Shown here: positions 3,070 to 63,300 of the stretch, piece after piece
Position numbering within the stretch: the stretch's first letter is position 1
Layout of the letters: every line of letters starts with the position of its first letter
DNA from: Eledone cirrhosa
Taxonomy: Eukaryota
DNA length: 64,000 nucleotides
Reading direction: 5' to 3'
Assembly: GCA_964016885.1 (NCBI GenBank)
Contig: OZ024742.1
Location: forward strand, 190,898,001 to 190,962,000
The notes under the pieces: model-generated
Databases searched by the model: none
The model's input: only the letters and a program-made list of their open reading frames with translations
What the model was told of the DNA's origin: nothing
Made by a program: the position numbers and the translations under genes

Positions 3070-3350
3070 CTAAACTCTGTCTTAAGCGAGAAGGCTCATT
3101 TGGTCGGTGCTTATCTCGGTTTCATGGGCGTGAAGCGACTGAAAGTACAAGACTCCCCGCTGGACAGGACGCCAGTCCATCGCAGGGTTAACCACCCAGG
3201 TATTGCTGGTACTCATTTTCAGCTGAGTATACTGGAGCAACGTGAAATGAAGTGTTTGCTCAAGAACACAACACGCAACCTAGGAAACTAAACCACGACA
3301 TTATGATCGTAAGTCGAACACCCTTACGACTAGTTCACGTTCCTCCACCA
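3070..3350 (-). mobile_element. Second tRNA-derived SINE family (CORE/Meta-like central region)
   Basis: Reverse-complement match to 63015-63300. Confidence 0.8.
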
Positions 3351-20912: not shown

Positions 20913-20956
<44 letters not shown>

Positions 20957-21705
20957 CAGGTACACATACATATATGCACGTATCAGTTTAGCGGACGCTC
21001 ATTTTAACGCCGCTTTGTTCGTTTGTAAACAAACTGAACAGCCTGAATTTATGCCGTACGGTGTTAAGGCAACAACGTCACCCTTTTGTTCAACACTGAC
21101 ACAGGAACGATGTACTAGTTTCAAGCTTGTTAGCTATCATCAGCACCGTATACCCTTCTGCCAGATAGTTGAACGTTCGAAAGTATATACTTTCATTATG
21201 AAAATTAACGGCTGAGCAGCCTAATTTGCATATCGAGTGAGTTAAGTCGGTCAGGCATACCGAAAACGATAACTCACTCGATATGCAAATTAGGCTGCTC
21301 AGCCGTTAATTTTCATAATGAAAGTATATACTTTCGAACGTTCAACTATCTGGCAGAAGGGTATACGGTGCTGATGATAGCTAACAAGCTTGAAACTAGT
21401 ACATCGTTCCTGTGTCAGTGTTGAACAAAAGGGTGACGTTGTTGCCTTAACACCGTACGGCATACATTCAGGCTGTTCAGTTTGTTTACAAACGAACAAA
21501 GCGGCGTTATAATGAGCGTCCGCTAAACTGATACGTTCATATATGTATGTGTACCTGTATGTATATATGTATATATATATATATATATATGCATGCTACT
21601 GTACGTCTGTATACATATATGTATGTACGTATACATACATACTTACATTTAAGTAAGTGCCGTACTAAGAGTGAGAAATGAAATTTCGTTTTCATTTTAT
21701 TTCAA

Positions 21706-28914: not shown

Positions 28915-29690
28915 CATGCATACCCATGCACACACTCATACTCAAACACACATATACACACATATTGAGAAATATTGATGTGTCTCTGAATATATTTTGG
29001 ATATCTCTGTTCATTTTCGGTTGTCTTTTTCTCCCATCACACCTCCAACCCCACCACCATCACCATTACACACCAACACCCACCAACATCTGAATTCACA
29101 TTCATAAACGTTGAATATTCCACATAGTGACACCTTAGTTTATTCACTTCTCCTTCTCTCACATCTTCTCCCACCTCTTCTTGAAACATGTCTTCAATCA
29201 TGCCAACTGGTCGGTCCTTTCTAGAAATACCATACCATTTTTCTCTCGGTTCTTGTGACATCACTACCCCATTTAACGCATCCTTCTTAAGGAGATTATT
29301 TACACTTATTCCATGACTGATGTAAGATTCAGACAGAAGCCAAAGTCGATTGGAGTATTCTCTAAGCAGCTATTTTTATCGTTTATTTTATTTCATTTTA
29401 TTTTATTATCGAACTCTGCCCCACCCTCTGCCCCACCGTCTCTTAGGCAGTCATTTTTGTCGTTTATTTTATTTTGTTTTATTATCGACACCCCACCTAT
29501 CTCTACTTCCTCCACAGTCTCTCTTATGAAACATGACATCTGATTTGATTTCATAGGCGATAGAGTGTGGTTTCTTTTATGTAAACCTTGTTGGGACGTA
29601 AGGAAAACTTAAGAAGTGTGTTGTAGACCAGTGACATACTCCAATGTACAAAATGTTTCTTTTTGTATATAAATATGTATATATATATAT

Positions 29691-29888
29691 AACGAAGGAA
29701 ATGTGGTAAGGAACCAGGTGGACCATAACGCACCAAAGTACTCAATACTTAGAGTAGTAGAGTGGGTAATAGGAACGAGTAGGACCCCGACGGCTGAGCT
29801 CAAGCCGTTTCGACGGCTAATTCTGGACGTCCAGAATTAGCCGTCGAAACGGCTTGAGCTCAGCCGTCGGGGTCCTACTCGTTCCTAT
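29691..29888 (-). mobile_element. Short family A hairpin copy
   Basis: Perfect palindrome centred on CTGGAC|GTCCAG plus tail, in (TA)n. Confidence 0.85.
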
Positions 29889-29904
29889 ATATATATATAT
29901 ATAT

Positions 29905-31530
29905 ATCGTTATACTTGGGGAGGGTCATATTTGTGTAATAATATTGCCAGAATTAATAACAGAACACACTCACTGTTTGGTTGGTTTTCGATTCTGTGTC
30001 TTTTATATCGGTTAATTTAATTTATTCGGTCCTCAATGTTACCATTGACTGACCAACGGTCAAAAATACAGATATAATATAGACACAAACACATATATAT
30101 AGTCTAACAAAGTTCTTTCGTTGCATATCTGCAACATCATCAGTGGTGCTATTATGTTTCCTCCCGTTGTATTGTATGCCTACGCCATCTTTATTTAGTC
30201 AGTTTATTTATTTATTTATTTTGTCTTCTCTGCGCATGCGTTTGCGTGTGTGTTTAGTGTTTGATGTGTGTTCATGTCTGGGTGACTGTGTATAGGTTAT
30301 TGTATTCTATCTTAGTTTACTAGTGTGTGTTTATGTGTTTGCTGTTATTGTGCTTGTGTATGTATGTATTTATTTATTTATCCTTCTCCTAGTTCAGTAT
30401 TGTTTGTTTGGGTGTTGTTGTTATTCCATTCATTTTTACTGTTTAGCCTTGGCCTTCTAAGTTCTATTTCACTGGCCTCTCTGATTTGCCTATCTGCTGG
30501 GTCATTTCTATGTTTAGATATTATTCTAATTTCTATGTTGTCTATGTTACCGTCGTTTTGTTGTCTAGGATGTTCGTATAGTACTGAACCATTTTCGTCC
30601 TTTAATTTCCCCCCGGTGTTGGTCTATCCTTTCACCTATGCTACGAGCTGTCTCGTCTATGTATGTTGTTGTCATGTTTCTGCAAGTACCCTCTGCACAG
30701 CTTATGCTATAGACTACGTTTCTAGTTTTTCAGTTTATCCGGGGGTTTACTTTACATATAATACATTTCCTATTAGTACAGTGGGTTTTCTTAAAAGGGT
30801 AGCAAAACCTACCCTTTTACAACAACACGACAGTAACATAGATAACGTAGAAATTAGAATAATATCTAAACATAGAAATGACCCAGCAGATAGGCAAATC
30901 AGAGAGGCCAGCGAAATAGAACTTAGAAGGCCAAGGCTAAACAGAAAAAAATGAATGGAATAACAACAAAACCCAAACACACATTACTGACCTAAGAGAA
31001 GTATAAATAAATAAATAAATAAATAAATACACAAGCACAATAACAACAAACACATAAACACACACTAGTAAACTAAGATATAATACAATAACCAATACAC
31101 AGTCACCCAAACACGAACACACATCAAACACTATACACACACGCAAACGCATGCGCAGAGAAGACAAAAAAAAATAAAAGAAAAGAAACAGACTAAATAA
31201 AGATGACGTAGGCATACAATACAACGGGAGGAAACATAATAGCACCACTGAGGATGTTGCAGATGTGCAACGAAAGAACTTTGTTAGACTATATATATGT
31301 GTTTGTGTCTATATTATATGTGTATTGTTGACCGTTGGTCAGTCAATGGTAACATTGAGGACCGAATAAATTAAATTAACCGATATAAAAGACAGAGAAG
31401 CGAAAACCAACCAAACAGTGAGTGTGTTCTGTTATTAATTCTGGCAATATTATTACACAAATATGACCCTCCCCAAGTATAACAATATTTGTTTCGGAAC
31501 ACGATTTCATATCAAAAACCTCGCAAAACT
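29905..31530 (+). mobile_element. 5'-truncated PLE hairpin (family C)
   Basis: Arms about 29908-30560 and 30830-31485; GIY-YIG C-terminal motif RQIREASEIELRRPRLN (to 30954); 3' tail to (TA)n. Confidence 0.85.
31244..31284 (+). ncRNA. Minimal HHR, family C (mirror copy at about 30103-30145, minus, with CTGATGA)
   Basis: ACCA-CTGAGGA-T-GTTGCA-GATG-TGCAAC-GAAA-GAAC-TT|TGTT. Confidence 0.65.
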
Positions 31531-40978: not shown

Positions 40979-41027
<49 letters not shown>

Positions 41028-41029
41028 AT

Positions 41030-42078
41030 TATGTATACGTACATACATATATGTATACAGACGCACAGTAGTATGTATATATATACATACATGCACACAT
41101 ATATACATGTACGTATGGGATTACCGAACATTTATTATAATATTCGGTTTTTTTGTAAACAAACAGCCAGAATTAAGCCGTACAGTGTTCGGCAACCATC
41201 GTTGCCCTTTTGTTCAACACTGACAAAGGAACGATGAACTAGTTTCAAGCTTATTAGCTATCGTCAGCATCGTATACCTTCCTGTCAGATGATTGAACGT
41301 TTGAAAGTATATACTTTCCTTATGCATATTAACGGCTGGGCAGCCTAATTTGCATATCGAGTGAGTTAATCGGTGAATTAAACATATATGTCAGTGTTGA
41401 ACAAAAGGGCAACGATGGTTGCTAAACACTGTACGGCTTAATTCGGGCTGTTTGTTTACAAACAAACCGAATATTATAATAAATGTTCGGTAATCCCATA
41501 CGTACATATATATATATATGTGTGCATGTATGTATATATATACATACTACTATGCGTCTGTATACATATATCTATGTACTTATACACACTTATATTTAAG
41601 TATCAGCCGTACTAAGAGTGAGAAATGGAATTTCGTTTCATTCTTTTCCATTTATTGTTTTCGGTACGCCCGGCCGACTAACTCACACGATATGCAAATT
41701 AGGCTGCGCAGCCGTTAATATGCATAAGAAAAGTATATACTTTCAATCGTTCAATCATCTGACAAGAAGGTATACTATGCTGACGATAGCATATAAGCTT
41801 GAAACTAGTTAATCGTTCCTTTGTCAGTGTTGAATAAAAGGGCAACGATGGTTGCCGAAAACTGTACGGATTAATTCGGGCTGTTTGTTTACAAATAAAC
41901 CGAACATTATAATAAATGTTCGGTAAACCCATATGTACATATATATATATGTGAATGTATGTATATATATACATACTACTGTACGTCTGTATACATATAT
42001 GTATGTACGTATAAATACTTATATTTAAGTATCAGCCGTAATAAGAGTGAGAAATGAAATTTCGTTTCATTCTTTTCC

Positions 42079-46759: not shown

Positions 46760-47961
<1,202 letters not shown>

Positions 47962-51485: not shown

Positions 51486-51494
51486 TATATAAAT

Positions 51495-51766
<272 letters not shown>

Positions 51767-56565: not shown

Positions 56566-56604
<39 letters not shown>

Positions 56605-56606
<2 letters not shown>

Positions 56607-59510
56607 CGAAGGAAAAATGGTAAGGAACCAGGTGGACCATAACGCACCAAAGTACTCAATACTTAGGGTAGTAGAGTGGGTAATAGGAACAAGTAAGACC
56701 CCGACGGCTGAACTCAAGCCGTTTCGACGGCTAATTCTGTACTGAATAAACATTTATTCTGGTATTTAAATAGCCGAGCTTATCAAGGGGTAATTCCATA
56801 TATGGTCAAAGAGATAATCACCAGGATTGGACACATCACAAGTTAGTAGTAAATCTGTGAAGGCAAATTGGTGGGGGAAGGGGTAGCTAAACCTGCCGGT
56901 AGGAGAGAAAGGGAGAGGGGGGGGGGGGGTAGACCCATTCATGCGTTGGTAGTGCCAGCTACAGCTGGGCGTGAGGTCAAAGAGGATACTGAGGAGGAGG
57001 AGGGGGAGGAAGTCGAAACGGTAAGTAGAACAATGGCGGGTAAAATTATAAAAGGTACTGAGAGAAAAAAAATAAATAAATAAAATAAAATAAGCAAAGT
57101 CTGGTTACTAAGACTTAAGTCTCTCGCTATTGCTAGGCTAAAGAAATACATAAATAAATAAATAAACTAATAAGTGAATAAAAGAATAGATAAATAAATT
57201 AAAAAAATATATATATATATAATGAAGAATAAAAAAATAAATAATAATAATAAACATAAACTAGGTGGGACGGAAATAAAGGGACCCTTATACGAGGTAT
57301 AAGTGCGTGTATCGTACGGTGACGGGTCAACAAGGGGGGGGGGGCCAAAATACTAAAGAGACTACCACGAAATAATAAAGGTTTCTGCCCCAATCACAGG
57401 GCCAGCAACCACCCAGTGCAAGAAAGTAAACTAGTACGAGAATATAATTCAGGGTCCCACAAAAAAATACTAGTGCTAACTCTAAGGGTACCGCCACGAA
57501 ACAAAAAGTCTTATACAAGCTACATGAAAGATCGTACGAAGTAAAAGTAAAGAACGGAAAATTAATACAGACCCCCCCCCCCCCCAAAAAAAAAAATAAA
57601 GGGAAAAAGAAGAAAGAAATACTGGATAAACGAGAAATTAAAGCAAAGATGCCACTAAGAAATATAGAAGGCACGGCAAAAAGGGACAGCGGTTTGGAGA
57701 AGGGCGCGAGTATCCGAAGTCTAACACCTCTGCTATAAAAAGCGGAGTCAGCCAAATCTATCATAGAATAGGGGAGGGGGGTGGGGGTGCTGAAGCTACA
57801 AGGGACCGAGGGGCTACCTCAAGTGGGCGAGAAAAAAACGACGGCAAAGAAATGGAACTGGGGTAGAAGGACTAGGGAGGGATGGGGGGGAGGAGGAAAT
57901 ATAGAGGAAGCGATAAAAGAATGTAAAAGAAGATCTTACGTCTCCATTGGCAAGCAGGGGTTATCCTTTACAAAATAGGCAAGTGGTGTGTTATAGCCCT
58001 AGTCTACCCCCCCGGGTCATTATGGGGTTGTACGGCGAGGTAAGTCCTACGTAATCGGTGTTTACATGCAGTAACCAGTTCATCTTTCTTGTTTGGGAGT
58101 TGGTCCGTCGAAAACTCCTAAACAAGAAAGATGAACTGGTTACTGCATGTAAACACCGATTTCGTAGGACTTACCTCGCCCTCAAACCCCATAATGACCC
58201 GGGGGGGGGGGGGGGGTAGACTAGGGCTATAACACCCCACTTGCCTATTGTGTAATGTGTAACCCCTGCTTGCCAATGGAGTCGTAAGATCTTCTTTTAC
58301 ATTCTTTTATCGCTTCCTCTATATTTCCTCCTTCCCCCCATCCCACCCTAGTCCTTCTACCCCAGTTCCTTTTCTTTGTCGTCGTTTTTTTCTCGCCCAC
58401 CCGAGGTAGCCCCTCGGTCCCTTGTAGCTTCAGTAACCCCACCCCCTCCCCTATTCTATGATAGATTTGGCTGACTCCGCTTTTTATAGCAGAGGTGTTA
58501 GACTTCGGATACTCGCCCCCTTTTCCGACCGCTGCCCCTTTTTGCCGTGCCTTCTATATTTCTTAGTGGCATCTTTGCTTTAATTTCTCGTTTATCCAGT
58601 ATTTCTTTCTTCTTTTTCCCTTTTTTTTTTGGGGGGGGGGGGTGTTTCTGTATTAATTTTCCGTTCTTTACTTTTACTTCGTACGATCTTTCATGTAGCT
58701 TGTATAAGACTTTTTGTTTCGTGGCGGTACCCTTAGAGTTAGCACTAGCATTTTTTTGCGGGACCCTGAATTATATTCTCGTACTAGTTTACTTTCTTGC
58801 ACTGGGTGGTTGCTGGCCCTGTGATTGGGTAGAAACCTTTGTTATTTCGTGGTAGTCTCTTTAGTATTTTGCCTCCCCCCCTTTGTTGACCCGTCACCGT
58901 ACGATACACGCACTTATACCTCGTATAAGGGTCCCTTGATTTCCGTCCCACCTAGTTTATTTTTATTATTATTATTTATTTTTTTATTCTTCATTATATA
59001 TATATATATTTTTTAATTATTTATCTATTCTTTTATTCACTTATTTGTTTATTTATTTATCTATGTATTTCTTTAGCCGAGCAATAGCGAGAGACTTAAG
59101 TCTTAGTAACCAGACTTTGCTTATTTTATTTTTATTTTTTTTTTTTTTCTCTCGGCACCTTTTACAATTTTACCCTTCATTGTTCTACTTACCGTTTCGA
59201 CTCCCCCCCTCCCCAGTATCCTCTTTGACCTCACGCCCAGCTGTAGCTGGCACTACCAACGCATGAATGGGTCTACCCCCCTCTCCGTTTTTCTCCTACC
59301 GGCAGGTTTAGCTACCCCTTCCCCCACCAACTTGCCTTCACAGATTTACTACTAACTTGTGATGTGACCAATCCTGGTGATTATCTCTTTGACCATATAT
59401 GGAATTACCCCTTGATAAGCTCGGCTATTTAAATACCAGAATAAATTTTTATTCAGTACAGAATTAGCCGTCGAAACGGCTTGAGCTCAGCCGTCGGGGT
59501 CTTACTTGTT

Positions 59511-59514
<4 letters not shown>
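56605..59514 (-). mobile_element. Family A long element: 2.9-kb non-coding hairpin
   Basis: Arms about 56683-58101 and 58113-59514, short spacer, extra tail 56605-56682, (TA)n on both sides; arms differ by scattered substitutions. Confidence 0.9.
59407..59500 (+). ncRNA. Type I HHR with U3-A8 core (mirror copy at 56698-56791, minus)
   Basis: ACCCC-TTGATAA-G-CT-CGGCTA..TAGCCG-T-C-GAAA-CGGCT-TGAGCTC-AGCCG-TC|GGGGT. Confidence 0.85.
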
Positions 59515-59565
<51 letters not shown>

Positions 59566-59654
59566 ATATCAGTAAAACATTGGAGGTGTGAGAATGAGTA
59601 CTCAATAGCGAAGTAGCGCCATATTATATATATATAGACATGTATATATATATA

Positions 59655-59762
59655 AGGTGGAGGCACGTGGTAAGGGTATTCGGTGTTCCAGTATACTCAG
59701 CTGAAAATCAGTACCATCAATTACTGGGTGTTTAACCCTGCAATGGACTGGCGACCTGTCCA
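59655..59762 (+). mobile_element. Internally deleted copy of the second SINE family
   Basis: Matches parts of 63015-63300. Confidence 0.65.
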
Positions 59763-59786
59763 TGTATATATATATATATATATATA

Positions 59787-59902
59787 GCGAGGGAAAAGTG
59801 GTAAGGAACCAGGTGGACCATAACGCACCAAAGTACTCAATACTTAGGGTAGTAGAGTGGGTAATAGGAGTAAGTAAGACCCCGGGGTCTTACTTACTCC
59901 TA
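59787..59902 (-). mobile_element. Shortest family A hairpin copy
   Basis: Tail plus a palindrome centred at ACCCC|GGGGT (59883/59884). Confidence 0.85.
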
Positions 59903-59920
59903 TATATATATATATATATA

Positions 59921-60304
59921 TTACTTCAACATATTAATAAATATAGACATTCATGTGATCAAATATATTTTATTATACATATTTTAGAGGTACTGAGATA
60001 TTTCATCAGTACGTCCTCATCAGATAAAATAAATTGATGTCTGACATACCTCAACTGTGTTGATGTTTCAATTCCAGACTTGGCAGGTATGTCAGACATC
60101 AATTTATTTTATCTGATGAGGACGTACTGATGAAATACCTCTGTACCTATGAAATATATATAATAAAATATATTTGATAACATGAATGTCTATATCTATT
60201 AATATTTTGAAGTAATATTAATAACTCTAGAAAACCAAGGTATTGAGTGCTTCTAATCTATTGTAAAATTTTATTCATTGATTAATCAATGAACCTTGTT
60301 AAAT

Positions 60305-63014: not shown

Positions 63015-63300
63015 TAGTGAAGGCATGTAGCCTAGTGGTAAGAGTGTTGGACTTACGAACATAATGTCGTGCGTTCGATTCCTGGGCTGCGTACTGTGTT
63101 TTTGAGCAAAACGCTTCATTTCACTTTGCTCCAGTATACTCAGCTGTAAATGAGTACCAGCAATAGCTGGCGGTTTAACCCTGCGATGGACTAGCGTCCT
63201 GTCCAGGGGGGAGCCTTGTACTCTTAGTCGCTTCACACCATGAAACCGGATAAGCACCGGCCAAATGAGCCTTCTGGCTTAAGACAGACTTTAGTCTTAG
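63015..63300 (+). mobile_element. Full-length tRNA-derived SINE (second family)
   Basis: Box A TAGCCTAGTGG, box B GTTCGATTCC, central CTGCGATGGACTAGCGTCCTGTCCAGGGGG. Confidence 0.85.

What the first reader, a model, noticed from the sequence alone, without database searches (positions are those of the whole stretch)
59787..59902. A copy whose 5' end lies at the predicted ribozyme cut
Seen: this copy folds back at ACCCC|GGGGT, so its sense strand starts with GGGGT, the first bases after GUC in the long element (1-nt ambiguity). The inverted arm at about 51650 starts at about the same point. Inference: a genomic fossil of reverse transcription of the 3' cleavage product, which would be indirect in vivo evidence that the variant ribozyme cuts.
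Basis: partly seen in the sequence, partly recalled or inferred. Interest (0 to 1): 0.8.

Follow-up and report, generated by a model that had tools for sequence, protein, structure and literature searches.

The report
Retroelement copies ending at ribozyme cut
This hairpin is one of a few hundred copies of a Penelope-type jumping gene that stop exactly where the gene's own self-cutting RNA motif is predicted to cut, which likely means the motif does cut in living cells, although most copies stop 41 letters further on at a predicted transcription start.

Summary
The fold-back is real (axis 59883|59884) and starts at the predicted cut of a type I hammerhead (U3-A8 core variant) of a Hydra-clade Penelope-like element; I found its autonomous 3.54-kb partner. 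Most copies (64 of 132 sampled) end near -41, a predicted TATA/Inr start inside the ribozyme's stem II loop; about 2% have both ends at the cut. Microhomology does not explain that class: 22 of 34 cut/cut junctions carry spacers (16 kinds), 7 of 18 arm-less copies and 4-5 of 19 internal restart junctions also begin at +1, while insertions whose other end reached -40 stop at +1 in only 9 of 100. Cut-ended copies are enriched in subfamilies with a paired U3-A8 core. This single copy is of the ambiguous perfect type, and the 51650 arm (starts +4, partner at -40) is no support. No RNA data; a reverse-transcriptase stall at stem III is not fully excluded. The scan noted the same idea before on other DNA (e1-9541206, e1-8159350).

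The parts
59785..59883 (-). Sense segment of the finding's copy, +1 to +99 relative to the predicted cut (TAC subfamily)
59884..59903 (+). Inverted arm, +1 to +20, ends at the family's fixed CCTAT point and joins (TA)n
59880..59887 (.). Head-to-head joint CCCC|GGGG, axis 59883|59884, at the predicted cut
59785..59863 (-). One-sided 79-nt tail (+21 to +99), present on the sense segment only
59765..59786 (.). (TA)n target, left side
59901..59921 (.). (TA)n target, right side
56604..58080 (-). Long element, tail-bearing half (5'-truncated; end of ORF plus 3' region plus ribozyme); left half of a 2.9-kb palindrome, centre approximate
58085..59515 (+). Long element, inverted half, ending at +20; start approximate
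56698..56791 (-). Predicted type I hammerhead: stem I ACCCC/GGGGU, core U3-UGAU-A8-A9, long stem II, GAAA, stem III, cut between 56703 and 56702
   Evidence: read by hand; no Rfam hammerhead hit
56765..56772 (-). TATA-like TATTTAAA, 29 nt upstream of the main 5' end, inside the stem II loop (function inferred)
56741..56745 (-). Inr-like TCAGT; its A (56743, position -41) is the family's main 5' end (predicted transcription start)
59407..59500 (+). Second copy of the predicted hammerhead, in the inverted half of the long element
51493..51637 (-). Family copy whose sense segment reaches -40
51649..51665 (+). Its arm, starting at +4 (not at the cut)
29689..29893 (.). Family palindrome folding at -40 (main class)
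47465..47604 (-). Arm-less family copy starting at about -41

Best explanation
The hairpin is a Penelope-like (Hydra clade) insertion whose two mirror-image segments both stop at the predicted hammerhead cut, and it likely records reverse transcription of an RNA that the ribozyme had already cleaved. Shown: the element, its partner ORF, two fixed 3' points (+20 and +99), and two sharp 5' end points (about -41 and +1). Inferred: the element's enzyme nicks both strands of a (TA)n target and primes two cDNAs, one at +99 and one at +20; each runs to the RNA's 5' end, often gains a few extra bases, and the two ends are joined head to head. Most templates start at a promoter inside the ribozyme's stem II loop (-41) and so lack the ribozyme's first half and cannot cut there. 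Read-through transcripts from tandem or upstream sequence hold the whole ribozyme; when it cuts, the 3' product starts at GGGGU and gives the +1 class, about 2% of copies with both ends there.
For: (1) Among short fold-backs (window +13 to about -3; 984 matches, first 100 rows read by hand) 34 have both ends at the cut; the next best symmetric position has 3. 22 of the 34 carry a spacer, of 16 kinds, so no CCCC/GGGG overlap is involved. (2) Perfect joints: 12 at the cut versus 1 at the equivalent CG centre at -4/-3 (first 100 of 596 rows; p 0.003). (3) Arm-less copies: 7 of 18 start at +1, 1 more ambiguous, no other position above 2 (p 6e-5 after x27). (4) Internal restart junctions, which have no arm: of 19, 13 restart at -45 to -40, 4 exactly at +1 (preceding bases T, A, G, T), 1 at +1 or -2, 1 elsewhere; none of these five insertions has a segment clearly past the cut. 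(5) Control: when one end reached -40, the other stops at +1 in 9 of 100 or 6 of about 98 (overlapping set), fewer than at -23; when the arm ends at +1/+2 the other end is +1 in 28 of 32 (p about 1e-16). (6) Unselected sample: 9 of 132 ends in -1..+2 against 29 in 42 other interior positions (p 3e-4). (7) Subfamilies with a paired U3-A8 core give 26 of 32 assignable cut/cut copies but 38 of 97 in the sample (p 4e-5) and 30 of 57 among other short fold-backs (p 0.011). (8) U3-A8 is a described PLE hammerhead covariation (PMC4209133); two initiation sites and extension of both target strands were shown in vitro for another PLE (PMC11167929); extra bases mark template run-off in R2 (PMC3774820).
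Against: No RNA run was available, so neither the cut nor the start site was seen. The +1 class is a minority. Mixed insertions exist (one end -40, other +1; 9 of 100; the unit-length copy L265 starts at +1/-1 but its arm runs to -6), which need two templates or another cause. The cut lies 1-2 nt from the base of stem III, a natural pause site. Of the 9 sample ends near the cut only 3 are unambiguously +1 (3 are -1/+1, 3 are +2). The CC subfamily, about half of whose long copies have an unpaired C3.A8, still gives +1 ends (14 of 43; 3 of the 7 arm-less ones). Subfamily enrichment is confounded with age and with the share of long/tandem copies. Rfam does not recognise the ribozyme and the 17 aligned copies are 93% alike, too close to show compensatory pairs. 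In vitro, the anole PLE did not need cleavage, and no RNA-seq reads ended at its cut. Most counts are by hand from the first 100 rows (contigs C1 and C2).
Confidence: 0.75

Rival explanations
1. Reverse transcriptase pauses at the 3' foot of stem III (after the G run) on uncut RNA, and the paused ends are joined, helped by the CG palindrome or a 1-nt match.
For: Stem III begins at -2. About 48 of the first 100 rows fold inside stem III, so structure and self-complementarity do set joints. 12 of 34 cut/cut joints, the finding's own among them, are perfect and could use CG. Mixed -40/+1 insertions occur.
Against: On templates known to reach -40, +1 is not the top stop (9 of 100 versus 13 at -23). 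Spacer joints exclude C-1 exactly; a pause would be expected to copy the unpaired C. Both ends stop together (28 of 32), restarts repeat +1 within one insertion (L234, L266), and stem III is nearly the same in all subfamilies while the +1 share is not.
Confidence: 0.15
2. +1 is a second, weaker transcription start (C|G fits a pyrimidine-purine start), not a cut.
For: It would give the same fixed 5' end, coupling of both ends and extra bases; none of my DNA tests separates a start from a cut directly.
Against: It must coincide to the base with the hammerhead cut. No TATA-like word lies 30 nt upstream of +1, and the sequence from about -36 to +4 is nearly the same in subfamilies that differ in +1 share.
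Confidence: 0.07
3. A few ancestral cut-ended copies were amplified or duplicated, so the peak is not made of independent events.
For: Some rows share details (two rows with the same substitution, the spacer AAGTT twice).
Against: The class occurs in at least four subfamilies, each arm matching its own sense segment, with 16 spacer types and different flanks on many contigs.
Confidence: 0.03

Closest known systems
Hydra-clade Penelope-like elements (Craig et al. 2021, PMC8557442; section 11, passages and supplement passages read)
   Same: C-terminal GIY-YIG-type endonuclease, RWK-like, DKT, CxCX5C, CxxC and CxH motifs, (TA)n targets, hammerhead in the pLTR, inverted 5' copy and one-sided tail.
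   Different: A different family from Hydra-1_Obim by eye (other protein sequence, other ribozyme); 3.54-kb unit; 79-nt tail; U3-A8 or C3.A8 core; about 40-nt stem II loop holding TATA- and Inr-like words. The paper calls hammerhead function in EN+ PLEs unclear.
PAc (Poseidon) of Anolis, Frangieh et al. 2024, PMC11167929 (parts 1-2 of 4 read)
   Same: Two internal initiation sites that bound the tail, both target strands extended, AT-rich target, uncut RNA as main substrate.
   Different: They found no reads ending at the cut and no need for cleavage in vitro; here a minority of genomic copies end at the cut.
R2 elements with HDV-like ribozymes (Eickbush et al. 2013, PMC3774820; passages read)
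   Same: Genomic 5' junctions reflect the ribozyme cut, with non-templated bases from run-off.
   Different: In R2 the cut defines the normal 5' end; here it defines a minor class, with a hammerhead, and joints are head to head.
PLE hammerheads, Cervera and De la Pena 2014, PMC4209133 (Results and Discussion read)
   Same: Type I hammerhead in the pLTR; U3-A8 covariation described in Schistosoma Cercyon; proposed processing of precursor RNA.
   Different: Those are mostly minimal, dimer-dependent motifs; this one has a 6-bp stem III. The paper states there was no in vivo evidence.
Adineta Penelope inverted pLTRs (Arkhipova et al. 2013, PMC3846280; passages read)
   Same: Palindromes at inverted junctions; putative TATA and Inr-like words in the pLTR.
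   Different: They favoured self-priming on an antisense template; ends at a sense-strand start and a sense-strand cut favour a sense template here.

Membership tests
Hydra-clade PLE | Single ORF, RT followed by C-terminal GIY-YIG-type endonuclease | tested here: met
   786-codon frame in four tandem units, YRDD and VIY..YIG motifs read by eye; Pfam copy, NCBIfam and PDB gave no relevant hit; 642 homologues at E<=1e-10, unnamed
Hydra-clade PLE | RWK and DKT motifs, CxCX5C linker, CxxC and CxH near the end, no CCHH | tested here: met
   RWR, DKT, CNCPDRSIC, CNLC, CKH in P0001 against the list; RWK appears as RWR; absence of CCHH judged by eye
Hydra-clade PLE | Placement in the Hydra clade by RT phylogeny | not tested
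   No tree built; likeness to Hydra proteins seen by eye in the supplement passages
EN+ PLE | Tandem units with pLTRs, inverted 5' copy, one-sided tail, (TA)n target | tested here: met
Type I hammerhead ribozyme | Three stems around the core, UH at the cut, G10.1-C11.1 | tested here: met
   Fold and alignment
Type I hammerhead ribozyme | Paired 3-8 core positions (C3-G8 or covariant) | tested here: inconclusive
   U3-A8 in GG 26 of 26, TT 9 of 11, CC 12 of 25, one TAC copy; unpaired C3.A8 in CC 13 of 25 and CAT 5 of 5 (rows include both halves of one insertion)
Type I hammerhead ribozyme | Match to an Rfam hammerhead model | tested here: not met
   No hammerhead hit at E<=10 on 56590-56900; the core variant and long stem II loop may be the reason (inference)
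Type I hammerhead ribozyme | Self-cleavage at the predicted site | not testable with these tools
   Only indirect DNA evidence
Non-LTR retrozyme | Short non-coding tandem repeats with a whole hammerhead in each unit | tested here: not met
   Short copies are single truncated stubs of the coding element; the tandem unit is 3.54 kb with an ORF

The most novel reading that the evidence does not exclude
This PLE keeps its promoter inside the ribozyme's stem II loop, so that the ribozyme can only act on read-through RNA; the cut product is a second, uncapped template that is still copied and inserted, even at unit length, and younger subfamilies repaired an unpaired C3.A8 core to U3-A8 with a matching rise in cut-ended copies. 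The genome would then hold a countable, subfamily-resolved record of in vivo ribozyme activity.
Probability: 0.4. Interest if true: 0.72.

Novelty: new variant of a known kind. Interest (0 to 1): 0.58.

Why it matters
Papers read here call the role of PLE hammerheads unclear (PMC8557442), note the lack of in vivo evidence (PMC4209133) and failed to find RNA ends at the cut (PMC11167929). A class of germline insertions that ends at the cut, with internal controls, is indirect evidence that such a ribozyme works in vivo and that its 3' product can be retrotransposed, while showing that cleavage is not the main route. The two end points also favour a sense template and two-sided priming for the head-to-head structure, and name exact positions and natural core variants for a bench test. 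The logic is already known from R2, and the element type and palindromes are known.

Tried and rejected
Rfam on the whole window and on the ribozyme region: no hammerhead hit. The repeat finder was swamped by microsatellites. Sequencing runs: no RNA holder listed; the four contig-only runs hold many family copies but cannot show RNA ends, and no listed piece spans the joint: no evidence either way. The first DNA search is biased by its query and was left out of all counts. Twenty evenly spaced 10-kb stretches held too few copies alone. The first parser miscalled three +1 ends through a decayed reference; redone, where four G-run length changes were miscalled as -1..+2 ends and were dropped. 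One search missed the TT/GG subfamilies (2 nt shorter); covered. Of 21 restart rows two were dropped (L225, 1.5 kb away; L231, an arm joint) and L288 was re-read as -41 (1-nt indel). The 51650 arm was rejected as support. Retrozyme reading rejected. Pfam, NCBIfam and PDB did not name the ORF. Two papers were not held (Lunse et al. 2017 on PLE hammerhead dimers; Arkhipova et al. 2017 on Terminons; titles recalled), so what they say on genomic ends is unseen. I found no paper to cite for C3.A8 being inactive; that point rests on recall and on the mismatch mutants.

Full report
Coordinates below are relative to the predicted cut: +1 is the first G of GGGGT, -1 the C before it. 'Sense end' and 'arm end' are the 5'-most positions of the two segments. 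Hand counts come from the first 100 rows that each pattern search listed (contigs C1 and, in some, the start of C2), not from all matches.

Observation. The window holds about eight copies of one repeat family. At the finding, the minus strand reads (TA)n, a 20-nt arm, GGGGT..., 99 nt, (TA)n; the axis is 59883|59884. The long element at 56604-59515 is a 2.9-kb palindrome. It carries a hammerhead read by hand: stem I ACCCC/GGGGU, core UUGAUAA, G-C closing stem II, GAAA, a 6-bp stem III, then GUC. Rfam does not find it. The core is the U3-A8 variant described for Schistosoma PLEs (PMC4209133, Results).

What the family is. An exact 34-letter tail pattern has 16,134 matches in the 3.0-Gb genome. 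A tandem array on contig C1 has a 3.54-kb unit with a 786-codon open frame. Its motifs (RWR, DKT, CxCX5C, CxxC, CxH; C-terminal endonuclease) match the description of Hydra-clade PLEs (PMC8557442, section 11), and it resembles Hydra proteins in that paper's supplement by eye; no tree was built. Short copies are 5'-truncated stubs of this element. Nearly all share two fixed 3' points: arms end at +20, sense segments at +99. This is the known tail signature; for the anole PLE two initiation sites and extension of both target strands were shown in vitro (PMC11167929). I infer two cDNAs primed from the two target strands and joined at their far ends.

Where the cDNAs stop. I sampled 132 copies without regard to their 5' end: 95 of the first 100 tail matches with their neighbours, plus 20 evenly spaced stretches. 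64 end at -46 to -35, 11 run to -50 or beyond, 15 have nothing alignable upstream of +12, 29 fall in the 42 other interior positions, and 13 were called at -1..+2, of which 4 were G-run indel miscalls; 9 remain (3 at +1, 3 at -1/+1, 3 at +2; p 3e-4). The main end is the A of T(C/T)AGT at -41, with a TATA-like word 29-31 nt upstream; joints there also carry spacers. I read it as the transcription start. A promoter in the pLTR is known for Penelope (PMC2377424, passages) and TATA/Inr-like words were noted in Adineta (PMC3846280). Here it lies inside the stem II loop, so RNA from it lacks the first half of the ribozyme. No RNA data test this.

The +1 class; 43 loci with the exact perfect joint (24 TT, 14 CC, 2 TAC, 3 mixed; GG excluded). 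(984 matches): 34 of 100 rows have both ends at the cut, 22 with a spacer and 12 perfect or decayed; 5 more have the sense end only, 3 (plus 3 ambiguous) the arm end only; 7 fall within 3 nt upstream; the best other symmetric position has 3. Scaled, about 330 copies, roughly 2% of the family. (596 matches): 28 of 100 at the cut (one, with spacer AAGTT, could be two CpG decays), about 48 folded inside the self-complementary stem III, and spacers almost only at the cut.

Tests against microhomology. Spacers such as A, T, TA, AA, ATT, TACTA leave no overlap. The CG centre at -4/-3 yields 1 perfect joint against 12 at the cut. Arm-less copies: the 100 rows are 44 loci, 18 without an arm; 7 start at +1 (one with a substitution), all after T, 1 is ambiguous, and the other 10 scatter from -22 to +5. 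Restart junctions in copies that continue into the ORF (78 such copies examined): 19 usable, 13 at -45 to -40, 4 exactly at +1, 1 at +1 or -2, 1 at -15. L234 and L266 start at +1 twice within one insertion; the nine junctions whose first segment reaches -35 or beyond all restart at the -41 site, against 4 of 9 for those whose first segment stops at -3 or later (p 0.03; L269 left out).

Test against a pause at stem III. If the enzyme paused there on uncut RNA, +1 should dominate among insertions whose other end reached -40. It does not: 9 of 100 at +1, 13 at -23, about 8 at -3, 7 at -26 (724 matches); 6 of about 98 at +1 and about 16 at -23 (1,080 matches, overlapping). When the arm ends at +1/+2 the sense end is +1 in 28 of 32. 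The windows of these calls are similar but not identical. The 9 mixed cases, and the unit-length copy L265 (start +1/-1, arm to -6), show that +1 ends can also arise beside uncut templates, by a second RNA, a pause or a 1-nt match.

Genotype. Long copies show U3-A8 in GG (26 of 26) and TT (9 of 11), a mix in CC (12 U3, 13 C3) and C3.A8 in CAT (5 of 5); one TAC copy has U3. Cut/cut copies are GG 17, TT 7, TAC 2, CC 5, CAT 1, mixed 2. Against the sample (38 U3-type, 59 CC/CAT) p is 4e-5; against other short fold-backs of the same call (30 versus 27) p is 0.011. That C3.A8 is poor rests on recall and on the mismatch mutants. GG/TT also have more long copies (3,046 versus 1,544 matches), hence more read-through RNA, which is a confound but also fits cleavage.

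Verdict on this copy. It belongs to the TAC subfamily and to the perfect-joint type, so alone it cannot tell a cut from CG annealing; the 12 to 1 ratio makes the cut the likelier origin.

Literature. Nine searches of the held library showed no paper that maps PLE insertion ends to a hammerhead cut; two relevant papers were not held, most subscription journals are absent, and I did not see the supplements of PMC11167929 or PMC4209133. Seen: PMC11167929 parts 1-2 of 4; bioRxiv 10.64898/2026.07.22.740005 parts 1-2 of 5; PMC4209133 abstract, Results, Discussion; PMC8557442 passages, section 11, supplement passages; PMC3846280, PMC7229834, PMC3774820, PMC2377424 passages. The R2 precedent shows the reasoning is established for another ribozyme. 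Earlier notes of this scan reported the same layout many times in this genome, a small excess at the cut in one (e1-9541206), and doubts in others (e1-9827944, e1-9815704); I did not check their DNA.

Score. A known element type and a known kind of inference, but a quantified answer, with internal controls, to a question the field calls open; limited by hand counts on partial lists and no RNA.

Noticed in passing
window 56743-56772 (-) and all long copies: The family's main 5' end and a TATA-like word lie inside the hammerhead's stem II loop; the TATA-like word differs by subfamily (TATTTAAA in GG/TT, TATTCATA or TATTCAAA in CC).
   Followed up: partly
L210, L211, L214, L234, L236, L240, L264, L266, L276, L279, L281: Insertions made of repeated segments that each run to the same 5' end and restart 160-960 nt into the element, often in A-rich sequence near +200 to +360: likely template jumps.
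   Followed up: partly
L177, L191 and the array L201-L203: The young GG subfamily has an A that pairs at the second position of stem II (C or U in others) and a G-U pair in stem III; it also has the most cut-ended copies.
   Followed up: no
L201-L203 (G000:C1:91.47-91.49 Mb): Tandem array of at least four intact 3.54-kb units; 326 exact matches genome-wide for copies continuing into the ORF. The frame is open from about -11, 68 codons before the first Met.
   Followed up: partly
window 20924-21590, 41023-42024, 42795: A second palindrome-forming family with a canonical CUGAUGA/CUGACGA...GAAA hammerhead core and short palindromic stem III.
   Followed up: no
window 29903-31488, 43603, 7813, 24528, 59927-60210: Further inverted repeats or hammerhead-like cores from other families (motif scan; the last seen by eye).
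   Followed up: no
window 59570-59770, 3161-3242, 63127-63205: A different short repeat beside the finding, three copies in the window; looks SINE-like (label recalled, not tested).
   Followed up: no
rows: Frequent 23-nt deletions between the two AGCCGTCG direct repeats at -30 and -7, and a joint hot spot at -23.
   Followed up: no
P0001: The Hydra-type ORF gets no hit in the Pfam copy, NCBIfam or PDB searches, although 642 database homologues exist.
   Followed up: no
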